DNA of 64,000 bases from Alphaproteobacteria bacterium. Its GTDB lineage: Bacteria; Pseudomonadota; Alphaproteobacteria; RF32; CAG-239. A program made the translations under genes and the position numbers. The notes beneath the pieces were generated by a model. It was not told the DNA's origin. It ran no database searches and saw only the letters and a program-made list of their open reading frames with translations. The DNA lies in contig JAEEYV010000039.1 in assembly GCA_016288295.1 (NCBI GenBank), positions 10,156 to 74,155 of the forward strand. The letters are read 5' to 3'. Shown one piece after another: positions 3,206-21,171 of the stretch. Each line of letters begins with the position of its first letter. The stretch's first letter is position 1.

Positions 3206-3216
3206 TATAACACAAG

Positions 3217-3254
3217 AAAAGAGGATTGTGCCTGACCTGCACAACCCTCTTTTC
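3217..3254. terminator. bidirectional hairpin between convergent genes
   Basis: aaagaggattgtgc / gcacaaccctcttt stem (one mismatch) with a 6-nt loop, flanked by A/T runs. Confidence 0.6.
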
Positions 3255-3269
3255 TATCAAAAGACACCT

Positions 3270-3554
3270 TTAACGGTTCCAATCCATAATATGTATTCCA
3301 TATTTATCGACAACTGAAATCCCTATAGGAGTCCTACCGTCTTCAGCAAAAGCAATGCGTATCTGTGACCGACTGGTACTATCATTTCCCGGGTGATCAG
3401 CATCCGTGTACAACGCTATCGCACTTGGTTGTACACGTCCACCACGATACACCTCCGCCTCAATATACGGCGACAAAGGAACAATCTCGCTTACCACTCC
3501 ACCACTGCCGATAATTTGCGTCACAGTAGTAACTTCTTTCTTATGTGTAGCCAT
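3270..3554 (-). CDS. hypothetical protein, 94 aa
   Basis: ORF in the track. Preceded by its own copy of a duplicated promoter/leader cassette (3551-3644). Confidence 0.55.
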   Translation of the reverse strand: MATHKKEVTTVTQIIGSGGVVSEIVPLSPYIEAEVYRGGRVQPSAIALYTDADHPGNDSTSRSQIRIAFAEDGRTPIGISVVDKYGIHIMDWNR

Positions 3555-3644
3555 AATAAATACTGATTAATTGTTAGTAATATGAACAAAAATAAAATTA
3601 TATTCGCAACCTAAATCATTTTTATCCAATCGTCAACCATTTTA
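3551..3644 (-). promoter_or_regulatory. promoter plus 5' leader cassette, copy 1
   Basis: On the minus strand: TTGACG, 17-nt spacer, TAGGTT, then a ~55-nt AT-rich leader ending at the ATG. About 94 bp is homologous to 4174-4267, and the 47 nt next to the ATG are nearly identical. Confidence 0.5.
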
Positions 3645-3654
3645 GAACACACCG

Positions 3655-3692
3655 AAACACAAAACCCGCCAAGTCCTCACTCAGCGGGTTTA
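3655..3692 (-). terminator. intrinsic terminator of the 158-aa membrane protein gene
   Basis: Minus strand: AACCCGC, 14-nt loop, GCGGGTT, followed by ttgtgtttcgg. Confidence 0.55.
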
Positions 3693-3700
3693 ATCAAAAG

Positions 3701-4177
3701 CTATTCGGCGCGACATACCTGAATTTTGCCAAAGTAGATTTCAGAAAATTGTACATCCACCTCAAAACACCCTGCTTGCTCACCATTCAGATATACCTGC
3801 ACTGTTTTTCCATCAGCTGTTTCAATATTGCCGACATAATTCACTCCCGATTCGATACATGTACTTCCGATAACTGTCATTTTATATACCTTATCAGCCT
3901 CAAGCCTAGTGCACGGCAGATATGTATACCAAACAGCCAACACCCAAAAATACACGAACAAATACCCCAATATTGCAGGCAACCACTTTTCAGGCAAACC
4001 GCAACAAACGTTGTCATACACAATATATGCGGTCAACAGCGAGAACACCACTGCAAAAAATCGGTTATATACCTTCTTATTAATGCAGAATCTGATTCTC
4101 TGAGAACCATAAACCGCAAAAGCACAAACCAAACACACCAGAAACAAGACGAATCTGGATACATAATAGCCTTCCAT
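3701..4177 (-). CDS. hypothetical membrane protein, 158 aa (about 3 TM segments plus a C-terminal soluble domain)
   Basis: Start set at MEGYYVSRF (ATG at 4175-4177), because the duplicated leader ends exactly there as in copy 1. Hydrophobic N-terminal half. Confidence 0.55.
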   Translation of the reverse strand: MEGYYVSRFVLFLVCLVCAFAVYGSQRIRFCINKKVYNRFFAVVFSLLTAYIVYDNVCCGLPEKWLPAILGYLFVYFWVLAVWYTYLPCTRLEADKVYKMTVIGSTCIESGVNYVGNIETADGKTVQVYLNGEQAGCFEVDVQFSEIYFGKIQVCRAE

Positions 4178-4267
4178 AATAAATATTGATTGATTGTTAG
4201 TAATATAAACAAAAATAAAAACACGCCCACAACCTAGCGTATTTTTATTAATTGTCAATCGTTTTTA
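4174..4267 (-). promoter_or_regulatory. promoter plus 5' leader cassette, copy 2
   Basis: Minus strand: TTGACA, 16-nt spacer, TAGGTT, then a leader homologous to 3551-3644. Confidence 0.5.
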
Positions 4268-4273
4268 CATACA

Positions 4274-4993
4274 TCATCTGGCATTATCGGGATATTCTTT
4301 TCTTTTTGAATTTGATTTTTTTCTACAGGTCATCAAATCATCTATTTTATAGCCTCGTGGGCTTAATTGCACCATATTCCATCCTCCATTTGGTTGCTTG
4401 ACCGCAATTGCCGACAGTATTCCTGCTGTTTGTACTCTTCCCTCTGGCGAAACAAGTTTATCCCCCGGCTTTAACAAAATAAAATATTGTTTAATCGGCA
4501 TTGGAAACTTCAACACATTTAGAGCCTTACCGGCATTTTCTTGCCACATTTTTTCATCAACCTTTTGCCCGTCTTGCGTTATCAATTTTACACCTTTAGC
4601 CCAGTGTAAATTACCATTCCATATTGCCGGTTCAGTATTTTTTGCCCCAAAATCCGCATAATCATACAGTTTTTCAATCATATCCTTAATCCCCTGCGGT
4701 GTTTTATGCCAATCAGGATATTTTTTCAAAACTTCATTAAAATCATTTTCATTATCATAAACAACCAAACAATCACCAGGCATCAGCTTCTGATTTTCAA
4801 ATTCCGGCCCTCTCTCACCTCGTTTCCAACGAGCCAACAAATCAACATCCAAATCATCAGGGTTTGTAAACCCCACAACCTCATCACACGCCGTCGGAAT
4901 AATAATCCTCGCACTTTCAGAAGACATACACACGCCTGCTTTGCCGGATTTTAACTCTTTATCCAACATATCATAGGTATAAATAGTCATCAT
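4274..4993 (-). CDS. hypothetical protein, 239 aa, basic C-terminus (RKKSNSKRKEYPDNAR)
   Basis: ORF in the track with GAGGAA just upstream of ATGATG. No family recognised. Confidence 0.55.
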   Translation of the reverse strand: MMTIYTYDMLDKELKSGKAGVCMSSESARIIIPTACDEVVGFTNPDDLDVDLLARWKRGERGPEFENQKLMPGDCLVVYDNENDFNEVLKKYPDWHKTPQGIKDMIEKLYDYADFGAKNTEPAIWNGNLHWAKGVKLITQDGQKVDEKMWQENAGKALNVLKFPMPIKQYFILLKPGDKLVSPEGRVQTAGILSAIAVKQPNGGWNMVQLSPRGYKIDDLMTCRKKSNSKRKEYPDNAR

Positions 4994-5115
4994 TTCCTCT
5001 CATTTGTTCTCATATCACTATTTTACCCGAAAAATTTCTGGTAATCAAGAAATATCATCCATGAACTACAAGGCAAATACTTGACTTTTTAGATAATTAA
5101 AATATTATCTCATCT

Positions 5116-5769
5116 ATGATTGAAATTGCTTTTGACAAACATTTAGATCCTTTCTTTAAGGAGCAAGAACACCCCTTATTGGATGTACCTGACTTATGCA
5201 ACAAACCCTTTGATGCATACATTTCATATGCACAAAAGGCAATTAAACAGTACCGATCTCAAAAATATTTAATTGCCATATCCGACGACAGTCATTTTGA
5301 CACCAACCTTTTGTCATTAGCATTTTTTATTGCCTCCTGTTTAGATAATCAAAATACTGTTGACTGCCTTGTAATTAAAAATGAAAACTATAAAAAAGCA
5401 TTTGAAAATTACAAACCTTATATTGCTATTTCAATCGGCATCAAATATGCATTGCGCTTGATAAAAGAACCAGCCGATGTTATATATAAAGAACTTAAAT
5501 GTCTTAACTATCTAAATTTTTCAATTAAAGAAGATTGTGTACAAAACACTATATGCTACACTTTCAATTCTCAAAACACATCATATATTACAACAAACAA
5601 TACCTTTGAGGCACTAGTTTATGCCTCACTTTACAAAATTCTTGCTCTGGCAGAAATTGAAATTCCATTTAACCTAAACATTAGAATAACTAGTGATACT
5701 AGAGATATAGATGCTAAAGAAATAATTTCAACTATATTAGAAAAAGTATCACCCTATATTAACATTTAA
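5116..5769 (+). CDS. hypothetical protein, 217 aa
   Basis: ORF in the track. No motif recognised. Confidence 0.5.
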   Translation: MIEIAFDKHLDPFFKEQEHPLLDVPDLCNKPFDAYISYAQKAIKQYRSQKYLIAISDDSHFDTNLLSLAFFIASCLDNQNTVDCLVIKNENYKKAFENYKPYIAISIGIKYALRLIKEPADVIYKELKCLNYLNFSIKEDCVQNTICYTFNSQNTSYITTNNTFEALVYASLYKILALAEIEIPFNLNIRITSDTRDIDAKEIISTILEKVSPYINI

Positions 5770-5774
5770 CTCCT

Positions 5775-6386
5775 TTACCAATCTACTGAACTATAAACCT
5801 TAACTTCATCGGCAATTTTTCTGTATTTTTCTATGTATTCATTCACAAGCGCATACCTTTGCTCGATCATTTTTTTCGGAGTATGCCGTTTCGTAATGGC
5901 TTCCCGAACTTTCACTCTTTCTAATAACGTTTTCAAATCACTTATCACAAAATCAACCCTTGTTTTATATTTCAACTTCTTCAAATTACAAAACAACTCC
6001 AAGTGAGCCAGATTAACCCCACTATGCTCTAGCACTAATTTACATCCACTATCTACAGCTCTGCGCAAAATCTCATACCCGATAACTCTTGCAACAATTT
6101 CATTATTTTGAAATGCTTTCTTACTGCCATATTCTATCAAATCTTTTTGATATGATGGCAAATCCTCCATAATTTTATCAAAACTCAAAAAGCAACCATT
6201 GATTGATTTTTGGCAAAAAGTAGTTTTGCCGGCACCTGGGGCCCCGCTAACTTGTTCAAAAAATCTTTCTTTCGGACACTTACCTAAAAAATCACACACA
6301 ATTTTTTCATATTCTTCACTACGAATATGTTCATAATCATAAGGAATAAGATCCTTAACAGATGGCATCAAATCATATATTTTCAT
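5775..6386 (-). CDS. P-loop kinase, zeta-toxin/AAA_33-like
   Basis: Walker A SGAPGAGKTTF, LVLEHSG block, C-terminal RHTPKKMIEQRY block, as in zeta-toxin-type kinases. About 200 aa. Confidence 0.55.
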   Translation of the reverse strand: MKIYDLMPSVKDLIPYDYEHIRSEEYEKIVCDFLGKCPKERFFEQVSGAPGAGKTTFCQKSINGCFLSFDKIMEDLPSYQKDLIEYGSKKAFQNNEIVARVIGYEILRRAVDSGCKLVLEHSGVNLAHLELFCNLKKLKYKTRVDFVISDLKTLLERVKVREAITKRHTPKKMIEQRYALVNEYIEKYRKIADEVKVYSSVDW

Positions 6387-6740
6387 AATATTGCCTTATA
6401 ACACTTTTTACCTAATTTAGCAAGTACTTCAAACATTATGGGTTAAAGTTTTTTATCCTTATCACACTTATACATAAACAAGAAGTCCTCCAACAGTTAG
6501 CCGGAGGACTTTGTGTTTATAGGTAGCAGGCTATTCTTTGTGCTACAAGGACGTACCATACTAGCACACCAACAAAAAACACCCTTGTCCCAATACACAT
6601 TAATTCTAAAAAAATCAGAAACACAAGTATTTTGACAAAATATAAAAAAATCTAAAAAAATATTGACAAAGATTTAAAAATATGTTACATATACATCTGT
6701 ACAAGTCAGTATTATGTTTCATTATTAAAAGTAAGAATTC

Positions 6741-6986
6741 ATGAAAAAGAAAAAAAAGAAAGGTATGGTGACAAAACTTCGCCTTTTGCCACTGTACTGG
6801 AAAGTAATTGGAACGATTGCTATCTTCGGTGGCGGCGGTTGCTTGGCAAGTCAGTTGGTTACATCAGGGAGCGACGTGGGAGTATTTACAGGCATCATTC
6901 TTGCAGTGCTCGCTCTGTGGTTGCTCATTAACATGTGGCTACCCACAAAGGAGACTAACCCCCCCAAAAAACATCAACACAGTTGA
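6741..6986 (+). CDS. small membrane protein, 81 aa (2 TM), Lys-rich N-terminus
   Basis: ORF in the track, in a visibly G+C-richer patch shared with the downstream SPFH gene. Confidence 0.45.
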   Translation: MKKKKKKGMVTKLRLLPLYWKVIGTIAIFGGGGCLASQLVTSGSDVGVFTGIILAVLALWLLINMWLPTKETNPPKKHQHS

Positions 6987-7032
6987 TAACAATTTCAAAA
7001 AACAATTAAAAACAATTAAAAACAATTTGATC

Positions 7033-7920
7033 ATGAAGAAGAAAAATTTTTTGGTTATGGTTATGGCCATTTTTGTGGTCACAGTTTTCTCGTCGTGCAC
7101 TAGGGTCCCTCAGGGAACATTCGCGACCAAGACCTACGAATACGGAGACAGGAAGGGCGAGGTAGATATTCTTGGCCCAGGGTTGTATGCCAACCATTGG
7201 TTTGGCCGCTTTCACATCTACGTGTACCCCGCCAATGTGCAACAACACAGTTGGGTGAAAAGGAAAGATTCCGATGAACGGATCGCGTTCCAAGCCGAAG
7301 CTATGACGCTCAAGGCCGAAATAAACATCGAGTATGAGTTCTCGACCGTCGATGACGATCGCCGCAAAATGTACGTTTATTTCAAACGTACACCGCAAGA
7401 GATCGAAGAACAATTTATGAAGAAGGATATCGTGTCAGCGTTCAACACAGTATCGCAGACACTATCTGTCGAAGATGTTTATTCGACAAGAAAGGATAGC
7501 GTGAGGATTGCTGTACAGCAGATCGTACGAGACAAATATGCGCCTTACGGAATCCACATCAAAGAAGTAGCATACATGTCGCCCATTGATGTTCCTGAAG
7601 AAGTACGGGAAACGATAAATGCAAAAATTACGGCGACACAAGAGGCACAAAGGCGCGAAAATGAAGTTGCTAGCGAAAGAGCTGAGGCAATGAAAAAAAT
7701 TGAAAGGGCTCGCGGTGAAGCTGAAAGCATTAAAATCGCTGCTCAAGGCCGCGCGGAGGCAATTGACATAGAAGGTGCAGCCTTGCGTCGAAACCCCGAC
7801 ATCCTAAAATTGAAGCGCATCGAAACCCAAGCCATCGCAGCAAAATCAGCAGAAAACTGGAACGACCCAGTATTAGCTGCCGATCAAGCCAGTATTCTGC
7901 TAGGATTGGGTAAAGAGTAA
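7033..7920 (+). CDS. SPFH/band-7 (prohibitin/HflC-like) domain lipoprotein
   Basis: Start set at MKKKNFLV with lipobox VFSSC. SPFH-type core followed by an Ala/Glu/Arg-rich coiled coil (EAQRRENEVASERAEAMKKIERARGEAES). Confidence 0.75.
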   Translation: MKKKNFLVMVMAIFVVTVFSSCTRVPQGTFATKTYEYGDRKGEVDILGPGLYANHWFGRFHIYVYPANVQQHSWVKRKDSDERIAFQAEAMTLKAEINIEYEFSTVDDDRRKMYVYFKRTPQEIEEQFMKKDIVSAFNTVSQTLSVEDVYSTRKDSVRIAVQQIVRDKYAPYGIHIKEVAYMSPIDVPEEVRETINAKITATQEAQRRENEVASERAEAMKKIERARGEAESIKIAAQGRAEAIDIEGAALRRNPDILKLKRIETQAIAAKSAENWNDPVLAADQASILLGLGKE

Positions 7921-7937
7921 CCAAAAAACATTCACTC

Positions 7938-7975
7938 CGAAAGAGCGTTCACCTGAACGCTCTTTCGTTTATTTT
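7938..7975 (+). terminator. intrinsic terminator
   Basis: Perfect 13-bp stem cgaaagagcgttc / gaacgctctttcg, loop acct, then tttatttt. Confidence 0.85.
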
Positions 7976-8292
7976 AAGATTCTCAAAATTTGGAGTATTG
8001 TCCAACTAAACGAGAAAAATCCCTTGTTTCCAATAAGAAAACAACATAGACATCAAACAAAACAAGCCTATTTCAACTATCAAAAACCTACTGAAATATT
8101 TTTTTCTCATCGGCTCATATTTGCGCAAAATTTCAAACAACATCTTTTTCAATGTAACAATCCTAAATATCTTTTTAGATTACTTTAACAAACAAAACAT
8201 AAGGATATAGCCTCACTCCCCCATATTTAATCACCACTTTACTCCAAAAACATTGGCAAATCAATAAAATATCGTTTTTCATAACCTATCCT

Positions 8293-8321
8293 TTGACAAA
8301 CTCTATATCACGGTTTATAAA
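8293..8321 (+). promoter_or_regulatory. near-consensus sigma70 promoter of the CYTH-like gene
   Basis: TTGACA (8293-8298), 17-nt spacer, TATAAA (8316-8321). AGGAAG lies before the ATG at 8356. Confidence 0.55.
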
Positions 8322-8355
8322 ATTAGTATATATCATTGACAAAAGGAAGTCTTTT

Positions 8356-8983
<628 letters not shown>

Positions 8984-8987
8984 CTTC

Positions 8988-9016
8988 AAAACCGCCCACA
9001 ACAGGCGGTTTTTGTT
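8988..9016. terminator. bidirectional intrinsic terminator
   Basis: aaaaccgcc / ggcggtttt stem, 7-nt loop, T-run. Lies between convergent genes. Confidence 0.75.
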
Positions 9017-9037
9017 TGGGCAAAGACAGTAAATGCT

Positions 9038-9517
9038 TTATAAATTATTGAAATAGTTTTTCAACTTTGAAATTGCATCAACAACTCGAACCATGTTTTC
9101 TTTATTATTTCTTAGCATTTCTGCCTTTGTCATTAACTCACCAAGAACAGAATATTTATCTTTTATATCAATCAAATTATGAAGCGGAATTACAATAAAA
9201 TGAATATGCCCATCTGGCTTCTCATAAAAGGCATACGCAACTCTCTCACAATTAAATATATTTATAATCGCTTTTTTACAATGTGATAACAACATATTTA
9301 ATTCCTGTTGCTCATCCAAAGTTAGGTCAATATAATTAGAAACGTGCCGTAACGGTGACAAAATAATCATTCCGGGATACGCAATTTCAAAATCTTGAGC
9401 CAAATTCCATAATTTAGTTCTATAAATACGTCCTTTCATAAACTGTTTATTATTAGCTACAGTACAACCGATACAAGAAGTTTCAATTTCTTCGCCAAAT
9501 ACAGTCGTATACTTCAT
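9038..9517 (-). CDS. HIT (histidine triad)-like family protein
   Basis: N-terminal CIGC, and a DGHIHFIVIP block resembling the HxHxHxx triad. About 160 aa. Confidence 0.6.
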   Translation of the reverse strand: MKYTTVFGEEIETSCIGCTVANNKQFMKGRIYRTKLWNLAQDFEIAYPGMIILSPLRHVSNYIDLTLDEQQELNMLLSHCKKAIINIFNCERVAYAFYEKPDGHIHFIVIPLHNLIDIKDKYSVLGELMTKAEMLRNNKENMVRVVDAISKLKNYFNNL

Positions 9518-9701
9518 TTCATATAACCTTGATCAAAATTTCAACACCCAAAATATATTTTTTCATTTAACACAAACCCCATATACAATATTCGAATAAT
9601 TATTCTTTGTAAACATTTAACGTCACATGATTAATCTTAAGCTCACGCCGTTCAAGCCGTTGCCCCAAAACAAAAAACGCCCCTAAAGGGACGTTCTTTA
9701 C

Positions 9702-9777
9702 TGGCAGGGGCAGTAAGATTCGAACTCACGACACTCGGTTTTGGAGACCGATGCTCTACCAACTGAGCTATACCCCT
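9702..9777 (-). tRNA. tRNA-Trp (anticodon CCA), complete, CCA-3' encoded
   Basis: Folded by hand from the minus strand. Acceptor AGGGGTA/TGCCCCT. D arm GCTC-AGTTGGTA-GAGC. Anticodon arm TCGGT-CTCCAAA-ACCGA. T arm GTGAG-TTCGAAT-CTTAC. Discriminator G then CCA. Close to E. coli tRNA-Trp as I recall it. Confidence 0.93.
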
Positions 9778-9779
9778 AA
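9737..9779. repeat. left att core: 43-bp direct repeat (tRNA-Trp nt 1-41 plus 2 nt upstream)
   Basis: Identical to 19368-19410. Confidence 0.9.
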
Positions 9780-9791
9780 CGCTTGAAAATG

Positions 9792-9820
9792 CTTATAAAA
9801 CATTTCATCTCACAAATCAA
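9792..9820 (-). promoter_or_regulatory. putative promoter driving the intact tRNA-Trp (lies inside the element)
   Basis: Minus strand: TTGATT (9815-9820), 17-nt spacer, TATAAG (9792-9797), 14 nt before tRNA position 1. Confidence 0.5.
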
Positions 9821-10152
9821 GAACTTTTTTTATAATCCGCACACTTATTGCTTTTCAGCGGTTTTTGCCTTTAAAAAATCCTCATCTAAAGGAAGAATTT
9901 TTGACTTTTGTAAATGTCTGAATTTCTAACGATTAGACACCTGTAAAATCTTTTCCCTTTTTTATCCCTAAAGCCTTTCGGACATACCTATTTACAATGT
10001 TTTTGTTGGGGGTAAATCAAACCTCGTTAGCCTCAAAAGCCTCATTAGGTTTTGGCTTTTTTGCCCCACACCCTTAGTATGGCGGTTATTTTTTAAAGTT
10101 ACCAGACTTATTTTCTTAATTTTCAATAGGTTGGGGATAGTTATGGCATATT

Positions 10153-10974
10153 TTAAAATAAACTGTTTTGAATAACATTTGGCAAAGGGAATAATCCTAT
10201 AATAATGAAAGGATTTTTTGCTCGCCCGTGAAATTGTCTTGTTGTTCCTAAAAAGAAGTATAAATCTTTCTTTTTTGCATAATCTTCAAAAAACTTTTCT
10301 TTAATTTTTTGAAGTGCCATTTCTTCACTACCATAATGTTTTTTCCAGTTCCAAAATGCCGCACCAACTTCCCAGTCCTCAATCATTAAAGTAGATCGCT
10401 TGCCATTAATATCTTCAAAGATATATGAAAATTTATAGGGTAATTTATCTACAATCTTAAACACATCAACATCTTCATCTTTATTTGAAAATAAACTTAA
10501 TTGTTTTCTTTCAGCTTCTATAGCAGCCAATCTTTCTTTTGGGTACTCCCTGGAATCTTCTTCCCAGATAAAATCTATAATTTTCTTAGGTTTAAAAACT
10601 GCTAAAGACATATTGGTGGTGTTTGATTGTTTGATAAGTTTCGATAAATCATCATAAATTGCTTTTTTCAAAACAATATTACTTTTGCGTCCCCAGTCAT
10701 TAGATTTAATTTGTTCTAGTAGTTTTATCCTCTCGTAATCAACTTTATAACTCTCAATGCGTGGATCATCGTTTCCTTTATACATCCTAGCTTCAATCCA
10801 TCTATATTTACCATATTGTTTGTCATCATCTAACTTTCTAAATGGAATTGGATATAGTCTGTACCAATTTCCATCCTCATCCATACCGGCAGTACAAACA
10901 AGTTCTACATATTTCTTAGATATTGATGGATAAGTTTTTACAAGAATCAAAATTTTTTTAGTTATAAAGTCCAT
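10153..10974 (-). CDS. hypothetical protein, 273 aa, no family recognised (KTYP...VCTAG...WYRLYPIPFR N-terminal block)
   Basis: ORF in the track. Its ATG (10972-10974) directly abuts the TAG stop (10975-10977) of the upstream gene. Confidence 0.7.
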   Translation of the reverse strand: MDFITKKILILVKTYPSISKKYVELVCTAGMDEDGNWYRLYPIPFRKLDDDKQYGKYRWIEARMYKGNDDPRIESYKVDYERIKLLEQIKSNDWGRKSNIVLKKAIYDDLSKLIKQSNTTNMSLAVFKPKKIIDFIWEEDSREYPKERLAAIEAERKQLSLFSNKDEDVDVFKIVDKLPYKFSYIFEDINGKRSTLMIEDWEVGAAFWNWKKHYGSEEMALQKIKEKFFEDYAKKKDLYFFLGTTRQFHGRAKNPFIIIGLFPLPNVIQNSLF

Positions 10975-11853
10975 CTATATATGCTCCAATTCTAAATCTG
11001 GTCTCTTTTTGATTATAGCATTTGCTACTCTAGCACGGTGACACATATGGTAATCTGCTTCAAAACAGGTTAAGGCAACACGCTTATAGCGTTCTATCAA
11101 GTCAAGAATTTTATCTAAATAATATTCAGACTTAGCTAATGTCGTTTTTTCATATATTGAAAATAATTTGTTATAATCTGCCATAGTATTTAATTCAGTT
11201 CTTTGTTCAGACTCTATACCTAATTCAGGAATATTTATATAGGACAAACCAACCCGTTCTATTATATTTTGCATAGATGATTTAGAAAATCCATACTTCC
11301 TACTTATAGGATTTCGCCGAACATCACATACCAACTTGACATTATTTTGAATTAATCTGTTAATATAGCCATCTATACTGTCAGCTTCATATCCGATAGT
11401 AAAAAGTTTTCGTTTATTTGAAACTTCCAGTGTATATCTATTGGAATCTGGGCAGATTCTATCAAATATTTCACTTTTTAGAGTATAATATGGGTATTTT
11501 TCATATACATACTTAATTAAGTCATCTCCCTTATATTTGGAGTATATTTCCTTAAACTTTACAATTTTACTCTTATCAGAATTTTCTAATAATGAAATAA
11601 AATCAGCTTCTTTATCTCTTAACTCAATCTTATCGTTATAGGTGATATATTGGGATTGTTCCAAATTTCTAATATCTGCATAAGATTGGAAAGAAAAACA
11701 ACCAAACCTATAAGGAACAAAGGTATAATCCTTTTTATCTTTTGGTTGGCATATTTGTGTATATAAAAATAAATATTTTTGAAAATCTGTTTTATCAAGA
11801 CATCCACCAAATGCCTGCAAAAGCGATAAAACTAATTTTTGCCTGTAAAACAT
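10975..11853 (-). CDS. DUF488 domain protein with an N-terminal extension of about 150 aa (possibly SocA/Panacea DUF4065-like)
   Basis: C-terminal half carries DUF488 hallmarks: LVCDVRRNPISRKYGFSK, GLSYINIPELG, ALTCFEADYHMCHR. The N-terminus FQKYLFLY...FVPYRFGCFSF resembles the xLQKLLYx...yGP pattern. That assignment is from memory only. Confidence 0.7.
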   Translation of the reverse strand: MFYRQKLVLSLLQAFGGCLDKTDFQKYLFLYTQICQPKDKKDYTFVPYRFGCFSFQSYADIRNLEQSQYITYNDKIELRDKEADFISLLENSDKSKIVKFKEIYSKYKGDDLIKYVYEKYPYYTLKSEIFDRICPDSNRYTLEVSNKRKLFTIGYEADSIDGYINRLIQNNVKLVCDVRRNPISRKYGFSKSSMQNIIERVGLSYINIPELGIESEQRTELNTMADYNKLFSIYEKTTLAKSEYYLDKILDLIERYKRVALTCFEADYHMCHRARVANAIIKKRPDLELEHI

Positions 11854-15231: not shown

Positions 15232-17577
15232 TTAATAATTTTCTGCCAAAGCGTAAACTTCGGGATTTACATAATAAGTAGTCCGGCGTTTGCCTTTGGT
15301 TGTTCCGGCGCGTGTGCATTCATAACGTAGCCAATTCAGCTCCACCAATCTTTTAGCGGCAGTTTCTGTCGGCTCCTTGCGGCGCAGATATTTTACCGTG
15401 CCATTGTTATAAACATCACGTAAAATAAAGCTTTCAGGTTTGTTTTCGATAATCCATCGAGCCAATGCTCGTGCCTCAATATTATATACCGGACTATAAT
15501 ACATATAATAAACACGTTCACACATAGGTAATAAATAGGTATCGTAAAGATTTATAGCTGCCTTGACCGCGTCTTCGCTGACTTCTGTCGGCTCAGTAAA
15601 TTCCGAATTACTCCACCACAAAAGCTCTAAAAGTAACGCAAGCCTAAGGACATAACCTTGTCCTTTGCCAAGAAAATATTTGATATTGCTTTCTTCCTGC
15701 TGGGTTCTGGTTAAATGTTCAATATACCAAGTGCTAAAAACATCTTTTGCTTTTATACTTAATGGCAAGCATTTTTTCTGTTCTTCTGCAAAATCTGCAT
15801 ATGGATTTAATAAAGTATCCAGTTTTTGCAATGCTTTAAGCGCGGTTTCCGGCAAAGCAATATTTTGCGGTATAGCAGGCGGTATCACCGCTGGATACAC
15901 CCAAAGAAAGCGGGCAAGGAAGCCGTCGCCGCGCTCATCAAAAACCGTGTCTACGAGCCTTTGAGGCTGTATAGTGCCGAACACCGATACCAACAGATTT
16001 TTAATTTCTAATCGGTCGTCGTCATATTTAACGCGGTCGCATACAAACTTGTGCCCGTTAAATGCCTCGAGCCAAAAACCGCGCTCGGAACTGCCGCTGT
16101 TGTAACGATTCATACCACAAATCCACGCCGACAATTCATCGCGGAAAAGAATAGCCCCCTTTATGTTGCGCTCCATATCTTTGGTGATTGCCTCTTGTGT
16201 AGTATCACCGTAAACAAAGCGATATGTTTGCGGTTTTGCCGGAATAATAGCGGCATTTGGAAAATTGCTTGCAGTATCGGGATTTTCTTTGACCTTTTCT
16301 TCCCATTCTTTTTTGCGTTGCTTAGCAACTTCTCTAGTACGTTTCCATTCTGCTAGTTTTGCAAAATAAGGCTCTTTATGGTCTTCCTCAATTTGATTCA
16401 AAATACGCCGAATAGGAGTAGTTGCCGGTGTTTTGCCGGAGCTTGGCTCTCCGACAGCACCAATCCATAAACAGCATGGTTCAATCCATTCAGCCCAAGG
16501 TGAAACAGAACGCGACAAACCAATAACACCTGCTGCGCCGGCTAGCAATGAAAATGCCACATAGTCAACCGGCGCATTAGTATTTTGTGCCGTTTGCACT
16601 ACCCACGGCTCCAAGCTTTTAAATATGCTTGTATCAAGCCGTGGCGCCGGTAACAAGTCCTTAGTTTTAAGAATATCCATATCCGGTTCTGTGTCTGCTT
16701 GATTATCGCTGTGAGCTTCTGAAAACTTGATAGCATTGCTAACTGTTTTTACTGTCTCTGCTTTTGTTAATCCTGATTCAAGCGCGGCATTTACAACATC
16801 TTCTTTGATTTCAGAAATATCGCGAAATTGCCTATCTGCACTATTACAAATTTTGATAGTATTACTTAACAATCTATCGTTCCGTGTTCCCTCAGGAGCG
16901 TTGGCTATTTCATCAAGCAACATATCAATATCTGTTTTTTCGGGATTGTTAATTAAATCAATCAACCATTCTGGTGCAGTTGGAAAATCTTGACTAAAGT
17001 CAAAATTAACCCAAGTATATTTATTACCGTTTTCGTGAATAGATGGTGGTGCTACAACATAGCCTCCATTACCGCGTATATCAATATGCGGAGCTATTTT
17101 ACTCGTACTGCATTTGATTTCTACCCATTCCGGCATTTTGAAATACAAATGCTTACCTTTTCCGGTGCTAACGGTCGGGGCTTTGAGTTTACCATATTTA
17201 TTTTCAAACTCAGCTAAAGATTTTGCGCCGCTTTCACCATCTACATCAACAACAAAGATATTATTGATTGCTCCGGTCGGAATGCCTATATTGCAATCTG
17301 GAAATTGCTTATTCCATTCCTGCAATACGACTTTATCAGCGGTTGCGTCATTAAAACCATGCGGGCAAAGCGGTGATTTGCCTTGCTTTTTTACCGGAAA
17401 GGTTTTAATATTGCTTTGTGCGTAAAATGTAGCAATATCCAAAAAGTTGGTCGCTTCGTTGATATTGCAAACATTTTGGTTATTGAGAGCAGATGCGCTA
17501 ACATCTTCTCTCGGAGGGAGTGGAGAGGCTTGCGCCTCTCGCTCCATTTGTTCAATTAAAATGTTTTTTAGTTTCAT
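15232..17577 (-). CDS. bifunctional Prim-Pol domain fused to a P-loop NTPase (DUF3987/YfjI- or D5-like) replicase
   Basis: N-terminal PLCPHGFNDAT...IFVVDVDGE...GKGKHLYF...IDIRGNGGYVVAPPSIHENGNKYTW is the Prim-Pol pattern. Central Walker A GEPSSGKTPA. 781 aa. Confidence 0.85.
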   Translation of the reverse strand: MKLKNILIEQMEREAQASPLPPREDVSASALNNQNVCNINEATNFLDIATFYAQSNIKTFPVKKQGKSPLCPHGFNDATADKVVLQEWNKQFPDCNIGIPTGAINNIFVVDVDGESGAKSLAEFENKYGKLKAPTVSTGKGKHLYFKMPEWVEIKCSTSKIAPHIDIRGNGGYVVAPPSIHENGNKYTWVNFDFSQDFPTAPEWLIDLINNPEKTDIDMLLDEIANAPEGTRNDRLLSNTIKICNSADRQFRDISEIKEDVVNAALESGLTKAETVKTVSNAIKFSEAHSDNQADTEPDMDILKTKDLLPAPRLDTSIFKSLEPWVVQTAQNTNAPVDYVAFSLLAGAAGVIGLSRSVSPWAEWIEPCCLWIGAVGEPSSGKTPATTPIRRILNQIEEDHKEPYFAKLAEWKRTREVAKQRKKEWEEKVKENPDTASNFPNAAIIPAKPQTYRFVYGDTTQEAITKDMERNIKGAILFRDELSAWICGMNRYNSGSSERGFWLEAFNGHKFVCDRVKYDDDRLEIKNLLVSVFGTIQPQRLVDTVFDERGDGFLARFLWVYPAVIPPAIPQNIALPETALKALQKLDTLLNPYADFAEEQKKCLPLSIKAKDVFSTWYIEHLTRTQQEESNIKYFLGKGQGYVLRLALLLELLWWSNSEFTEPTEVSEDAVKAAINLYDTYLLPMCERVYYMYYSPVYNIEARALARWIIENKPESFILRDVYNNGTVKYLRRKEPTETAAKRLVELNWLRYECTRAGTTKGKRRTTYYVNPEVYALAENY

Positions 17578-18066: not shown

Positions 18067-19194
18067 CTAATTAAGCTTAGAAACAGCCTCTCGTAGCGTT
18101 TCATTTGCCAAGTGTGAATAGCGTTGAGTCATTGCAATATCGGAATGTCCTAACAGTTCTTTGACTTCGTAAAGTGAAACGCGTTTTTGCACTAACCGAC
18201 TGGCAAATGTGTGCCTTAAAGAATGAAAAACTACTTTTTGCCTGCGGTCTGTAACACCTTTATTTAATCCCAATGCTTTGACTGCACGTTCAAAAGTGCG
18301 TGAAACGTGTTCTATTTTCTTTCCCTCTCTGCTTTGAAAGATTAATTCATTGCCTTCATGCTGTTTTAATTTTGAAAGTTCATCAAAAACACGGTCTGTC
18401 ATATAGGCATAACGATTCTTACTATTTTTGGTATCACGCAAAAATAGCATTTTTTCTTCTAGGCTTACATCTGCCCAAGTAAGTCTGAAAATTTCTCCGG
18501 CGCGTAGTCCGCAATCGGCGGAAATAAGTGCCATTACATAAACTTGATAGCTATGTTTCTTTATTTCTGTTAAAAGATTGTTTAAATCTTCTTCGCTTAA
18601 AAACTTTACACGTTGATTATCTTCCTTTTTCAGCTCGTCAAATCTTGCTGCTGGATTTTCCCCTGCAAATAGCTCATATTTAATTGCAAAATTGAAAACT
18701 TGTCGCGTTAGTGCAATAGCATAGCGTTTCGTACGATTAGATAAATGTTTTTTATCCATAGCTTGAATTAACCTAGTGAGGCTTTTGAGGCTAATGAGGT
18801 TTAACTTAACATCTCCCAAAAAAGGTCTAAGCCATACTTTATATAGGTTAACTTCTCTGTCATATGTTGATTTTTTGTCTTTATTTTGAATATGCGGCTG
18901 ATAATATTCTTCAAAAAGCTCCGAGAACGTCATATTTGCCGCCTCATTAGCAATTCTTTCTTGTTCGCGTTGGTTGTTTTTATCGCGTAAAGAAGATACT
19001 TTACCTGCTTTTATATCTTGTTTTAATTCTTTTAAAATTTCGTAGGTTTTTTCTGCCGTAAATCCGTCTGATTTATAACCGATGCCTTCTTCACACTGCT
19101 TACCGTTTTTGGTATAGCGAATAGAAAAGTAAATATCTTTTCTACCATTTCTTATGCGATTTGCTGTTCGCACTCCAGGAAAACTTTTTACCAT
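18067..19194 (-). CDS. tyrosine recombinase / phage-type integrase
   Basis: C-terminal catalytic blocks: ADCGLRAGEI (Arg), HSLRHTFAS (H-x-x-R), LGHSDIAMTQRYSH (His, Tyr). Start set at MVKSFPG with a GGAGA RBS. Confidence 0.9.
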   Translation of the reverse strand: MVKSFPGVRTANRIRNGRKDIYFSIRYTKNGKQCEEGIGYKSDGFTAEKTYEILKELKQDIKAGKVSSLRDKNNQREQERIANEAANMTFSELFEEYYQPHIQNKDKKSTYDREVNLYKVWLRPFLGDVKLNLISLKSLTRLIQAMDKKHLSNRTKRYAIALTRQVFNFAIKYELFAGENPAARFDELKKEDNQRVKFLSEEDLNNLLTEIKKHSYQVYVMALISADCGLRAGEIFRLTWADVSLEEKMLFLRDTKNSKNRYAYMTDRVFDELSKLKQHEGNELIFQSREGKKIEHVSRTFERAVKALGLNKGVTDRRQKVVFHSLRHTFASRLVQKRVSLYEVKELLGHSDIAMTQRYSHLANETLREAVSKLN

Positions 19195-19367
19195 TTCAAA
19201 ATCTCCGTTTCGGTTTATCTGATACCTAAAGTATACCGAAACGGTTCGGAAAATCGAGAACACCTAGGTACGCCAAGGTACGCTAGGCAAAAAATTTTTT
19301 TTGCTTAAACTGTTTGAAAAATCAATAAAAAATGTGGAAATTTAAATACTTGGAAAATTCTATTTTG

Positions 19368-19410
19368 GGTTTTGGAGACCGATGCTCTACCAACTGAGCT
19401 ATACCCCTAA
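19368..19410. repeat. right att core: orphan 5' half of tRNA-Trp
   Basis: Identical to 9737-9779. The sequence to its left (19321-19367) has no similarity to the tRNA 3' half. Confidence 0.9.
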
Positions 19411-19422
19411 TGACTGGATAGA

Positions 19423-19450
19423 TTAATACACTATCCTAAAAATAAATCAA
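19423..19450 (-). promoter_or_regulatory. putative native tRNA-Trp promoter, now driving only the tRNA fragment
   Basis: Minus strand: TTGATT (19445-19450), 16-nt spacer, TATTAA (19423-19428), 14 nt before tRNA position 1. The -35 region aaaagtgcTTGATTt is nearly identical to that at 9815-9829. Confidence 0.45.
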
Positions 19451-19484
19451 GCACTTTTTCACCTATCACTAATTTCCTTCAAGA

Positions 19485-20027
19485 TCATGCGGACATTACT
19501 GCGATAAATTCGTGGCGATGCCCATCAATATCGCACCACATTTCATAAAATTCATCTGCTCTAACCAGGCGCGTTTCATCATAATACGGATCATAAAACA
19601 AAATTCGATGTTCTTTTAAGTCACCCTTTCCACCTGTAGCAATATAAGCCAAAACAACAACCCAATGAGCACAATTATACAAGCATTCAGCCATAACATA
19701 ATATTTTTCTTTCAAAAGGTTATTCAACAATTTAAGTGATATTTCTTGATTGGCAAAATCTAAACATGACAGCACTTTTTTCTTGCCAAGCATTTTTTTA
19801 CTCATAATTTCTTCGGTATAGTGAGGCCCCTTAACCAAATCGTACTTTTTTATAAACTCTGCCTCAGATAAAACCTTATCACCAAAAGCCGACAAAATCG
19901 TCCTGATTGCCGCCACTGAACAAGTCCAGTTTTTTTCCTGCCGGTACAACCTAGGTGGGACCATACCACACGATACATAGGATTCACTTTTTCTCATCTT
20001 CAAACCTTCATCTTTGCATTTTCTCAT
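19485..20027 (-). CDS. papain-fold cysteine peptidase, C39-like domain protein
   Basis: Q-x5-WTC (NWTCSVAAIRTIL), AHWVVVLAY and FYDPYYD fit a Cys-His-Asp arrangement. Start ambiguous (20027 or 19997). The track start at 20099 would overlap lptG. Confidence 0.55.
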   Translation of the reverse strand: MRKCKDEGLKMRKSESYVSCGMVPPRLYRQEKNWTCSVAAIRTILSAFGDKVLSEAEFIKKYDLVKGPHYTEEIMSKKMLGKKKVLSCLDFANQEISLKLLNNLLKEKYYVMAECLYNCAHWVVVLAYIATGGKGDLKEHRILFYDPYYDETRLVRADEFYEMWCDIDGHRHEFIAVMSA

Positions 20028-20052
20028 ACCGGTTTTCCTAAAAAAGCTTTCT

Positions 20053-21171
20053 TTAATTTCCCTCCAAATGAAGCAGGAGTGATGTCGCCACCATTGCAAT
20101 AATCAACGTTGGTGTCCACACTGCCAACAATATCGGAATGTAATTATTAATTCCGAATGCATAAATAATCTGCGACATAAAATATACAATAAATCCGGTT
20201 GTAATTCCTCCAACAATCATGTACATCACGCCGCCTCGGCGATTATTGCCACGCAGAGAAAACACCGCTGCAATCAAAACCATTGCCATCAGCAAAAAAG
20301 GTGATGCCCACAGTGACAGATACCGCATCTTGTGGCGAACCACTGAAAAACCTGACTTCTCGTAAAATTCTATCGTATTCGGCAAATCCCAAAACGAAAT
20401 CGCCTCCGGCTCAATAAAGTTTTCTTTAATTCGCTCAATAGTTAGTGACGTCTTATAATCAAAATCATTAAGCTTTTGCGTCGGTTTTCCGGTTTCAAAA
20501 ATCCGAACATCTTTCATTTCTATTTTATTATTATGCAGTTCTGCGGCATAAGCCTCGACGCGCTTCAATAACATTGAATTTGGGCTCATTTCCAACAAAC
20601 TGACTTTACGCATCAGCAACAAATCATCTTCTTGCCGAACCGATTTTGCCTCCAACACCAAGATATTTCCGTTTTCTCCGGCCTCTCTAATCCATAGTCC
20701 TTTGTTTGAAAACAATACTGCATCAGGGTTTTGGGTCTTAAAACGATAATTCATAGTTTCATATACTTCATACATATACGATGAAATCGGATTAATTATT
20801 CCTATATTAACAATTCCGACCAAAAATACTATTGCCAACACCGGTATCAAGAATCCCCAGATCGACACTCCCGCTGCGCGCATAATCACAAATTCATTTG
20901 ACCGACTGACTTTCCAAAAAGTCACCATAGCTGCAATCATCATTACAAAAGGAAAAACAAGCTCAAACGATCGTGGCATTTTTACTAACGCCATTTTTAC
21001 CACAAAACCAAATCCCACATCAGGACGATCAGCTGTACGCCGCAAAAGTTCGATAATATCAAACATCATAATAATGCCGACAATCATCAGCAATACCACT
21101 AAAAAACTCATCAACATTTGACGCGATAAATATCTGCCTAAAATTGAATTTGGTCTCATATCATTCCTCAA
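20053..21171 (-). CDS. lptG: LPS export ABC transporter permease LptG (YjgP/YjgQ family)
   Basis: 372 aa with 6 TM segments and a central periplasmic beta-jellyroll region. The N-terminal ILGRYLSRQ pattern is typical of LptF/G. Confidence 0.8.
   Translation of the reverse strand: MRNDMRPNSILGRYLSRQMLMSFLVVLLMIVGIIMMFDIIELLRRTADRPDVGFGFVVKMALVKMPRSFELVFPFVMMIAAMVTFWKVSRSNEFVIMRAAGVSIWGFLIPVLAIVFLVGIVNIGIINPISSYMYEVYETMNYRFKTQNPDAVLFSNKGLWIREAGENGNILVLEAKSVRQEDDLLLMRKVSLLEMSPNSMLLKRVEAYAAELHNNKIEMKDVRIFETGKPTQKLNDFDYKTSLTIERIKENFIEPEAISFWDLPNTIEFYEKSGFSVVRHKMRYLSLWASPFLLMAMVLIAAVFSLRGNNRRGGVMYMIVGGITTGFIVYFMSQIIYAFGINNYIPILLAVWTPTLIIAMVATSLLLHLEGN

What the first reader, a model, noticed from the sequence alone, without database searches (positions are those of the whole stretch)
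9778..9830. The element supplies its own promoter for the host tRNA-Trp, and that promoter is homologous to the displaced native one
Seen: upstream of the intact tRNA (minus strand) is TTGATT, 17-nt spacer, TATAAG, then 14 nt to tRNA position 1 (9792-9820). Upstream of the orphan fragment is TTGATT, 16-nt spacer, TATTAA, then 14 nt to position 1 (19423-19450). The -35 neighbourhoods are nearly identical (aaaaagttcTTGATTt versus aaaagtgcTTGATTt), while the spacers have diverged. By the logic of site-specific insertion, the 9.8-kb copy lies inside the element and the 19.4-kb copy is chromosomal. Inference: attP carries a captured tRNA-Trp 5' half together with its promoter, probably from a related genome. 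Transcription of tRNA-Trp, often a single-copy gene in small genomes, now depends on element DNA. The native promoter would transcribe a 41-nt tRNA fragment reading into the element towards int.
Basis: partly seen in the sequence, partly recalled or inferred. Interest (0 to 1): 0.6.

Follow-up and report, generated by a model that had tools for sequence, protein, structure and literature searches.

The report
Mobile element brings tRNA-Trp its promoter
A 9.6-kb mobile element sits inside this gut bacterium's only tryptophan tRNA gene the unusual way round, replacing the gene's front half and its promoter with its own copies; related species that have lost the rest of the element still use its promoter.

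Summary
An intact tRNA-Trp (9702-9777, minus strand) and an orphan copy of its first 41 nt (19368-19408) lie within an exact 43-bp direct repeat. Each copy is preceded by TTGATT-N17/16-TATxxx.

Between the repeats lies an integrase / Prim-Pol element. The closest relative, G028, has the empty site: LptG, native promoter, tRNA-Trp, LdcA. So the 19.4-kb promoter is chromosomal and the 9.8-kb one belongs to the element.

This genome has only one tRNA-Trp gene.

Nineteen of 282 species in the family carry the same kind of element. In 15 of 15 elements where the far end is known, it carries an A-tract, TTGATTT, N17 and TATA, all invariant, while the spacer and leader vary. Several genomes with no integrase and no orphan keep the element-type promoter and element DNA next to housekeeping genes. 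In those genomes it appears to be the only promoter for tRNA-Trp.

The claim of homology to the displaced native promoter is weak. The two share only a 16-nt A-tract/-35 block that unrelated tRNA promoters of this genome match as well. Capture from a related lineage is plausible.

This is a new member of the rare, known class of elements that displace the 5' part of a tRNA gene.

The parts
9702..9777 (-). Intact tRNA-Trp(CCA), the only one in the genome. Its 5' 41 nt is supplied by the element and its 3' 35 nt is chromosomal.
   Evidence: ARAGORN on the window and on the whole genome.
9671..9700 (-). Intrinsic terminator hairpin plus U-run directly after the tRNA (host DNA).
   Evidence: Fold energy -16.3 kcal/mol, z-score -3.4. 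About 56 nt downstream of the tRNA, which includes this hairpin, still align with G028.
9737..9779 (-). attR copy of the 43-bp identity block (tRNA positions -2 to 41).
   Evidence: Exact direct repeat.
9792..9820 (-). Element-borne promoter core: -35 TTGATT (9815-9820), 17-nt spacer, -10 TATAAG (9792-9797), then 14 nt to tRNA position 1.
   Evidence: Sequence. TTGATTT and TATA are invariant in 15 of 15 element-borne copies.
9821..9833 (-). A-tract just upstream of the -35 box, resembling an UP element.
   Evidence: Invariant A5 run plus T at -3 and C at -1 in 15 of 15 elements. It is a general feature of tRNA promoters in this genome.
9834..9866 (-). Element-specific conserved end segment (aaaccgctgaaaagcaataagtgtgcggatt). 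It marks element origin and is not part of the promoter.
   Evidence: Shared by subfamily-1 elements G020, G061, G062 and G063, and by G253, which has no detected orphan.
10153..11853 (-). Cargo pair (273 aa plus a DUF488 protein), co-oriented with the tRNA. It is the last gene pair before the promoter.
   Evidence: Pfam. The same pair sits next to tRNA-Trp in the G031 remnant.
15232..17577 (-). Prim-Pol plus DUF3987 replication protein of the element.
   Evidence: Pfam E-values 2e-41 and 1e-61; PHROG primase and helicase families.
18067..19194 (-). Tyrosine integrase, 375 aa from the conserved ATG. The longest ORF begins at a GTG at 19263.
   Evidence: PF00589 E-value 3e-33. Motifs LRAGE, HSLRH and LGH..QRY are present. 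The ATG and a GGAG ribosome-binding site are conserved in 17 elements.
19205..19306 (-). Conserved leader between the orphan and int: an AT palindrome (19287-19306), two GCGTACCT direct repeats (19263-19283) and a hairpin next to the int ribosome-binding site (19205-19249).
   Evidence: Alignment of 17 elements; hairpin fold -16.3 kcal/mol, z-score -2.6. Function is inferred only.
19368..19410 (-). attL copy of the identity block: the orphan tRNA-Trp 5' half (positions 1-41 = 19408-19368).
   Evidence: Exact repeat. The same orphan lies roughly 100-200 nt upstream of int in 16 of 16 loci with a close int relative.
19423..19460 (-). Displaced native promoter: A-tract, -35 TTGATT (19445-19450), 16-nt spacer, -10 TATTAA (19423-19428).
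   Evidence: About 90% identical to the sequence upstream of the intact tRNA-Trp in the element-free relatives G028, G003 and G012.
20053..21171 (-). LptF/LptG permease gene, the chromosomal flank that anchors the native side.
   Evidence: Pfam. It is 91% identical in protein sequence to G028's gene and lies next to the tRNA-Trp promoter there.

Best explanation
A 9.6-kb integrative element (tyrosine integrase, Prim-Pol/DUF3987 replicase, HTH/PD-(D/E)XK pair, DUF488 pair) has recombined with the single tRNA-Trp gene in the reverse of the usual orientation. Its attP carries tRNA positions -2 to 41 rather than the 3' end. The identity block stops in the 3' strand of the anticodon stem, so the crossover probably lies in or near the anticodon loop (inferred).

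Integration pushed the native promoter and native 5' half 9.6 kb away, next to int. It joined the element's 5' half to the chromosomal 3' half and terminator. Because the native promoter left with the native 5' half, the element has to supply transcription signals. It does so with its own sigma-70-type tRNA promoter (A-tract, TTGATT, 17 nt, TATAAG, 14-nt leader), which is a conserved module of the whole element family.

Shown: the geometry, the empty site in a relative, the single gene copy, the family-wide conservation, and int-less remnants that still carry this promoter.

Inferred: that this promoter is the one that fires, and that it descends from a tRNA-Trp promoter of a related lineage.
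For: - Geometry and boundaries.
- Empty site: G028 has YicC-gmk-LptG, 64 nt, tRNA-Trp, LdcA, Mur ligase. The joined flanks of the window align across that junction at 88%.
- Occupied and empty alleles at 97-99% flank identity: G010 against three metagenome contigs. Homology ends exactly at tRNA position 41.
- Family: all 16 loci with int at 76% identity or more have the orphan upstream of int. At least ten have both ends on one contig, 8-11.7 kb apart. That makes 19 of 282 species in the family: 13 from the census plus 6 of subfamily 1.
- Promoter: 15 of 15 element-borne copies keep the A-tract, TTGATTT and TATA at a 17-nt spacing, while spacer and leader vary.
- Natural loss of the native promoter: G009 (LptG 440 nt upstream), G021 (a class I aminoacyl-tRNA synthetase gene, probably LeuRS, within 3.3 kb; positions -107 to -5 are 100% identical to the G034 element end) and G031 (TypA/BipA within 3 kb). 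These genomes have no close integrase and no orphan, yet carry the element-type promoter and element DNA at their only detected tRNA-Trp.
- Covariation across the joint: the element-borne 5' half carries G26 where the host has A44 (G065), and C27 where the host has G43 (G066, G069). The G065 and G069 elements are 86-94% identical, while their host flanks are unalignable upstream and 77% identical downstream.
- Single tRNA-Trp gene in the genome.
Against: - There is no transcript evidence of any kind.
- The strict consensus scanner calls neither promoter.
- The cargo genes at 10153-11853 are co-oriented with the tRNA, and no terminator was predicted between them and it. Read-through could therefore contribute.
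- No excised circular (attP) junction was found in the viral or metagenome contig collections.
- All genomes are metagenome-assembled. The 'no integrase' remnants rest on contiguous contigs but could still miss DNA.
- The genome is 90.6% complete, so a second tRNA-Trp cannot be excluded absolutely.
Confidence: 0.8

Rival explanations
1. The resemblance between the two promoters in this window is convergence on the lineage's generic tRNA-promoter consensus. It is not descent from a common tRNA-Trp promoter. The element's promoter need not have been captured from any tRNA-Trp gene.
For: Only the 16-nt A-tract/-35 block aligns. The tRNA-Thr (contig C46) promoter scores higher against the element promoter, and the tRNA-Leu, Thr and Val promoters score higher against the native one. 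The -10 region and leader are no better than shuffles. An A-tract followed by CTTGnnn occurs upstream of many tRNAs in this genome.
Against: The element necessarily captured the tRNA-Trp 5' half itself, and the promoter is contiguous with it. The -35 box is specifically TTGATT(T) in almost every tRNA-Trp gene of the family, native or element-borne (two native genes have TTGCTT), but in only 5 of the 45 or so tRNA upstream regions of this genome. Chromosomal TATA-type Trp promoters next to chromosomal ORFs exist in G173, G188 and G068. The G068 promoter is identical over all 44 nt from the -35 box to the tRNA start to the promoter that the G034 element carries; G021 has exactly this sequence and G034 itself differs at two leader positions.
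Confidence: 0.3
2. The outward-facing promoter exists mainly to drive int when the element is circular, as the Pcirc promoter does in ICEclc (recalled from memory). In the circle it would read through the 5' half into int. Transcription of the tRNA after integration would be a side effect.
For: By geometry, attP places this promoter and the 5' half directly upstream of int, on the same strand. A conserved roughly 170-nt leader, with repeats and a hairpin next to the int ribosome-binding site, lies between the orphan and the int ATG.
Against: After integration int sits behind the native tRNA promoter in the same arrangement, so the promoter gives no on/off switch between the circular and integrated states. 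Remnants that have lost int keep the promoter intact at the tRNA. The two roles are not exclusive.
Confidence: 0.25
3. tRNA-Trp is transcribed by read-through from the element's cargo operon (10153-11853), and the TTGATT/TATAAG motif is inactive.
For: The genes are on the same strand, the gap is 375 nt, and no terminator-like site was found in 9500-10200. The consensus scanner does not call the promoter.
Against: The motif is invariant in 15 elements whose adjacent cargo differs (DUF488 pair, HTH, PD-(D/E)XK, DnaB-like), and in remnants with different upstream genes.
Confidence: 0.08
4. The assignment is the other way round: the 9.8-kb promoter is native and the 19.4-kb copy came in with the element.
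For: None beyond the symmetry of a direct repeat.
Against: Element-free relatives carry the 19.4-kb type of promoter directly after LptG and in front of an intact tRNA. The 9.8-kb type is preceded by sequence shared only with other elements.
Confidence: 0.01

Closest known systems
Integrative elements that recombine with the 5' part of a tRNA gene (Zhao & Williams 2002, J Bacteriol 184:859; cited in PMC6563490 alongside archaeal cases as 'considerably less frequent' than 3' integration)
   Same: A tyrosine-integrase element whose attP carries the 5' part of the tRNA gene rather than the 3' part, so the 5' fragment is displaced upstream and the element must provide transcription signals.
   Different: I could not read the 2002 paper because it is not held, so details of that element are from memory only. 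Here there is a whole family (19 of 282 species), the promoter module is shown to be conserved, and int-less remnants retain it. The host clade (uncultured gut and rumen Alphaproteobacteria) and the target (tRNA-Trp) are new as far as I can tell.
Canonical tRNA/tmRNA-gene genomic islands (Islander definition, PMC4383910)
   Same: An integrase gene, an intact tDNA and a co-oriented displaced tDNA fragment that mark the ends, with size inside the 2-200 kb filter. Islander's configuration filter accepts a 5' fragment upstream of the tDNA.
   Different: The usual case displaces the 3' fragment and leaves the native promoter in charge. Here the promoter is replaced.
dusA-specific islands (Farrugia et al. 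2015, PMC4482086)
   Same: The element replaces the 5' end of its target gene with its own sequence, and putative -35/-10 boxes are present upstream both before and after integration.
   Different: That target is a non-essential protein-coding gene, and the integrase family is different. Here the target is a single-copy and presumably essential tRNA.
Int / Prim-Pol-helicase backbones of P4-like satellites and related small islands
   Same: Co-oriented int, a small protein, and a Prim-Pol plus DUF3987 fusion; no capsid or conjugation genes were seen.
   Different: Integrase is at most 32% identical to any phage integrase in the phage collection. I did not test any relation to a helper phage.

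Membership tests
tDNA-targeting tyrosine-integrase genomic island (Islander criteria) | A tyrosine recombinase gene inside the island | tested here: met
   PF00589 E-value 2.9e-33 and phrog_1 4e-67; motifs LRAGE, HSLRH and LGH..QRY are present.
tDNA-targeting tyrosine-integrase genomic island (Islander criteria) | An intact tDNA and a co-oriented end fragment of the same tDNA bound the island | tested here: met
   Exact 43-nt repeat, same strand, 9631 nt apart.
tDNA-targeting tyrosine-integrase genomic island (Islander criteria) | An uninterrupted site in related genomes, with breakpoints at the repeat | tested here: met
   G028 synteny. G010 against the occupied contigs L113, L114 and L116 shows homology ending at tRNA position 41.
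tDNA-targeting tyrosine-integrase genomic island (Islander criteria) | Excision to a circular form with an attP junction | not testable with these tools
No attP junction was found in viral or metagenome contigs.
Reversed-orientation (5'-displacing) tDNA integrators | The duplicated segment is the 5' part of the tRNA, and the displaced fragment lies upstream of the regenerated gene | tested here: met
   The repeat is tRNA positions -2 to 41, and the orphan lies upstream in tRNA orientation.
Reversed-orientation (5'-displacing) tDNA integrators | The element supplies the transcription signals for the regenerated gene | tested here: inconclusive
   A conserved promoter motif in 15 of 15 elements, and remnants where it appears to be the only promoter. 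There is no transcript or reporter data.
Sigma-70-type promoter | -35 and -10 hexamers that match the consensus at 16-18 nt spacing | tested here: inconclusive
   TTGATT (4 of 6), 17 nt, TATAAG (5 of 6).
Sigma-70-type promoter | The hexamers are conserved while the spacer and leader diverge | tested here: met
   2.0 bits at the A-tract, TTGATTT and TATA; 0.2-1.0 bits at most spacer positions.
Sigma-70-type promoter | A mapped transcription start | not testable with these tools

The most novel reading that the evidence does not exclude
The reversed geometry acts as a ratchet. Once the element is resident, the cell's only tRNA-Trp depends on element DNA, while the displaced native promoter and 5' half are free to be lost. 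Deletions that remove int and the orphan then fix the element's promoter permanently. On this reading a mobile element has repeatedly and irreversibly replaced the promoter of an essential single-copy tRNA gene across a bacterial family. TATA-type promoters stand at 53 of 282 species, and about 10 of them have demonstrably element-derived flanks but no detected orphan. The dependence may also stabilise the element, as a form of addiction without a toxin.
Probability: 0.3. Interest if true: 0.7.

Novelty: new member of a known kind. Interest (0 to 1): 0.5.

Why it matters
Integration into tRNA genes is usually described as harmless because the element restores the 3' end and the native promoter stays in place. 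Here the element takes over the promoter of a single-copy tRNA, the sole decoder of UGG.

The comparative data add three points:
- The promoter is a conserved module of the element, not an accident of one insertion.
- The element's 5' half co-varies with the host's 3' half across the recombination joint.
- Lineages that lost the integrase still run tRNA-Trp from the element's promoter.

Together these give a concrete, testable case of a mobile element rewiring expression of a core translation gene. They also define a family of small islands in uncultured gut and rumen Alphaproteobacteria, and an attB (tRNA-Trp positions 1-41) for an integrase with unusual polarity.

Tried and rejected
- The Zhao & Williams 2002 and Williams 2002 papers are not held. 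Literature searches for explicit statements about promoter supply by 5'-integrating tRNA elements found only secondary citations.
- The consensus promoter scan does not report either promoter. I therefore relied on conservation.
- A search for the circular attP junction found nothing in viral contigs. The five metagenome hits were all attL.
- The census pattern returned zero only because I set the leader gap one base too short. Disregard it; one search is the corrected run. The orphan pattern misses subfamily 1, including this window, so those six genomes were added.
- I considered that all chromosomal TATA-type promoters are element scars. I rejected this as a general rule, because in G173 and G188 the promoter sits next to a chromosomal LdcA-like gene with no element signature, and the G068 orphan-side promoter directly follows the end of an ORF that matches the end of the G173 gene.
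- I looked for a tRNA 3'-end repeat that would bound the accessory block on the other side of the tRNA. There is none.

Full report
**Observation**

The window holds one tRNA gene, tRNA-Trp(CCA), at 9702-9777 on the minus strand. An exact 43-nt direct repeat lies at 9737-9779 and 19368-19410. It corresponds to tRNA positions -2 to 41, so the copy at 19.4 kb is an orphan 5' half.

Read on the minus strand, the intact gene is preceded by an A-tract, TTGATT (9820-9815), 17 nt, TATAAG (9797-9792) and a 14-nt leader. The orphan is preceded by an A-tract, TTGATT (19450-19445), 16 nt, TATTAA (19428-19423) and 14 nt.

A hairpin followed by a U-run lies directly after the tRNA (9700-9671; -16.3 kcal/mol, z-score -3.4). 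The gene is therefore a compact unit of promoter, tRNA and terminator.

**What lies between the repeats**

The interval encodes these products:
- a tyrosine integrase (conserved ATG at 19194, 375 aa, with the LRAGE, HSLRH and LGH..QRY motifs);
- a 123-aa protein;
- a Prim-Pol plus DUF3987 fusion;
- a DUF6150 protein;
- several small proteins;
- an HTH_3 / PD-(D/E)XK pair;
- a 273-aa / DUF488 pair.

To the right come LptF/G, guanylate kinase and YicC, which are chromosomal genes.

The genome is a 1.47-Mb, 62-contig, 38.7% GC metagenome-assembled genome. Record titles of its relatives place it among uncultured gut and rumen Alphaproteobacteria. ARAGORN finds a single tRNA-Trp in the whole assembly.

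**Which copy is native**

In the closest relative, G028 (LptG 91% and YicC 91% identical in protein sequence), the order is YicC, gmk, LptG, 64 nt, tRNA-Trp, LdcA, Mur ligase. The 75 nt upstream of that intact tRNA are about 90% identical to the sequence upstream of the orphan in this window. Joining the window's two flanks reproduces the G028 locus across the junction at 88% identity.

The 19.4-kb promoter is therefore the displaced chromosomal one.

A second line of evidence comes from G010, which has an intact gene with its native promoter and no integrase. Three metagenome contigs share that flank at 97-99% identity but carry the orphan followed by the element. Homology ends exactly at tRNA position 41.

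**An element family with a fixed design**

All 16 public loci that encode an integrase at least 76% identical to this one have the same 41-nt orphan roughly 100-200 nt upstream of int, on the same strand. It is followed by conserved element sequence. At least ten genomes have the orphan and the intact gene on one contig, 8-11.7 kb apart.

In a census of the 282 species representatives of the family, the subfamily-2 orphan junction occurs in 13 genomes from 8 of 23 genera. Subfamily 1, to which this window belongs, adds six more.

For 15 elements the end next to the intact tRNA is known. All 15 carry an A5 run, T at -3, C at -1, TTGATTT, and TATA starting 17 nt after the -35 hexamer. Each of these positions is invariant at 2.0 bits. 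Most spacer and leader positions carry 0.2-1.0 bits.

Upstream of the A-tract, the elements share non-promoter sequence found nowhere in native loci: aaaccgctgaaaagcaata.gtgcggatt in subfamily 1, and aaacgc.gcaaacgcaatgtttgcaagg in subfamily 2.

Native promoters (those upstream of orphans, or of intact genes in element-free genomes) are mostly of a different type. They read TTGATT, 14 nt (13 in this genome), GTGTAT[C/G/T][A/T]A, with long and variable leaders. Thirteen of 17 orphan-side promoters are of this type, against none of 15 element-side promoters. Fisher's exact test gives p = 7e-6, not corrected for phylogeny.

**Does the element promoter work?**

The simple consensus scanner calls neither site, because both -10 hexamers lack the final T. 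The argument is therefore indirect. It has three parts.

1. Conservation, as described above.
2. Covariation across the recombination joint. In G065 the element-borne 5' half has G26 where the host 3' half has A44. In G066 and G069 it has C27 where the host has G43. The G065 and G069 elements are 86-94% identical, while their host flanks are unalignable upstream and 77% identical downstream. The chimeric gene is thus kept foldable, either by selection or by conversion from the orphan copy.
3. Natural experiments in which the native promoter has been lost.
   - G009 has LptG, a 440-nt stretch holding a fragment of an element gene, the element-type promoter and tRNA-Trp.
   - G021 matches the G034 element end at 100% from -107 to -5, and a class I aminoacyl-tRNA synthetase gene, probably LeuRS, lies within 3.3 kb.
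   - G031 keeps the 273-aa / DUF488 pair and the promoter, and TypA/BipA lies within 3 kb.
   - None of the three has a close integrase or an orphan, and each has one detected tRNA-Trp.
   - G005, G026, G032, G246, G253, G279 and G286 also show element-derived DNA next to the promoter without a detected orphan.

In those remnant genomes I found no other promoter candidate in front of the only decoder of UGG.

Across the family, 53 of 282 species have the TTGATT-N17-TATA type at an intact tRNA-Trp.

**The homology claim**

Within this window the two promoters share only AAAAAGT[T/G]CTTGATTT, 15 of 16 positions. This beats shuffled sequence (2 of 2000 shuffles reach it). However, the promoter of an unrelated tRNA-Thr in the same genome scores higher against the element promoter (30 against 27). 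The tRNA-Leu, Thr and Val promoters score higher against the native Trp promoter than the element's promoter does. The remaining 37 nt are no better than chance. An A-tract followed by CTTGnnn is the general signature of tRNA promoters in this genome.

Homology to the displaced native promoter therefore cannot be shown from this pair.

The broader inference, capture from a related genome, is reasonable. The promoter is contiguous with a 5' half that must have been captured. TTGATT is the -35 box of nearly every tRNA-Trp gene in the family but of only 5 of the 45 or so tRNA upstream regions here.

Chromosomal promoters of the element's TATA type also exist. In G173 and G188 they sit next to a chromosomal LdcA-like gene with no element signature. 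In G068 the orphan-side promoter follows directly on the end of an ORF that matches the end of the G173 gene, and all 44 nt from its -35 box to the tRNA start are identical to the promoter that the G034 element carries. G021 has exactly this sequence; G034 itself differs at two leader positions.

Traffic probably goes both ways: hosts to elements by capture, and elements to hosts by scarring. I could not polarise every case.

**Mechanism**

The identity block ends at position 41, in the 3' strand of the anticodon stem. The likely crossover is at or near the anticodon loop, as in the common anticodon-loop class of tRNA integrases (recalled from Williams 2002). Here, though, the homology extends towards the 5' end instead of the 3' end.

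In both states int lies behind a tRNA-Trp promoter and a 41-nt 5' half: the element's promoter in the circle and the host's after integration. The roughly 170-nt leader in between is conserved. It contains an AT palindrome, two GCGTACCT direct repeats and a hairpin next to the int ribosome-binding site. These may bind Int or an excision factor, or limit read-through. That is inference.

**Comparison with known systems**

Recombination with the 5' part of a tRNA gene is known but rare. PMC6563490 calls it 'considerably less frequent' than 3' integration and cites Zhao & Williams 2002 and several archaeal cases. Islander's rules accept the configuration. The dusA islands are the protein-gene analogue, with putative promoters before and after insertion.

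This element meets the structural criteria of a tDNA island and of the reversed-orientation subclass. Excision and promoter activity remain untested. I file it as a new member of a known, rare kind.

The new content is the size of the family, the demonstrably conserved promoter module, the covariation across the joint, and the int-less remnants that retain the promoter.

**Verdict**

- Observation: confirmed.
- Interpretation: partly supported. The geometry, the dependence on element DNA and the promoter supply hold. Homology to this host's displaced promoter is not demonstrable.
- Confidence in the main explanation: 0.8.
- Interest: 0.5.

Noticed in passing
window 3206-9701: Relative to G028, where tRNA-Trp is followed within 66 nt by LdcA and Mur ligase, this genome has about 6.5 kb of extra low-GC DNA on the 3' side of the tRNA. 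It encodes a zeta-toxin-like kinase, an SPFH protein, a HIT-like protein and orphan ORFs. There is no integrase and no repeat of the tRNA 3' end.
   Followed up: partly
window 10000-10051 and 18770-18821: A 52-nt inverted repeat, 81% complementary, containing GAGGCT motifs. One arm lies about 250 nt upstream of the element promoter and the other lies inside the int coding region. These are possible arm-type recombinase binding sites of attP.
   Followed up: no
window 19205-19306: The leader between the orphan 5' half and int is conserved in 17 elements. It holds an AT palindrome, two GCGTACCT direct repeats, and a hairpin next to the GGAG ribosome-binding site. The hairpin's arms look different in sequence between subfamilies, but I did not count the pairs.
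   Followed up: partly
window 18067-19263: The longest int ORF (398 aa, GTG at 19263) overshoots. All relatives start at a conserved ATG with a GGAG ribosome-binding site, at 19194 (375 aa).
   Followed up: yes
L030 (G020:C35), intact tRNA-Trp at locus position 11537: The regenerated tRNA-Trp of G020 has three G-to-C differences (positions 15, 42 and 67). Two of them break stem pairs. This is either consensus error in the assembly or a damaged chimeric tRNA.
   Followed up: no
window 19485-20099: A 204-aa ORF with no family match lies between LptG and the native tRNA-Trp promoter. It is absent in G028, G003 and G012 and present in G002 (71% DNA identity). This is a variable gene at the native side of the locus.
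   Followed up: no
whole genome (G000), regions upstream of tRNA genes: Most tRNA genes are preceded by an A-rich tract, CTTG(A/C)nn, about 17 nt, and a TAnnnn box with a short leader. This is a clear lineage-specific signature of stable-RNA promoters.
   Followed up: partly
G071 (L071 on contig C46; L085 and L098 on contig C47): This genome bin holds two intact tRNA-Trp genes. One is element-borne, with its orphan on the same contig. The other has a native-type promoter that resembles G074's rather than the one upstream of the bin's own orphan. The bin is probably mixed.
   Followed up: no
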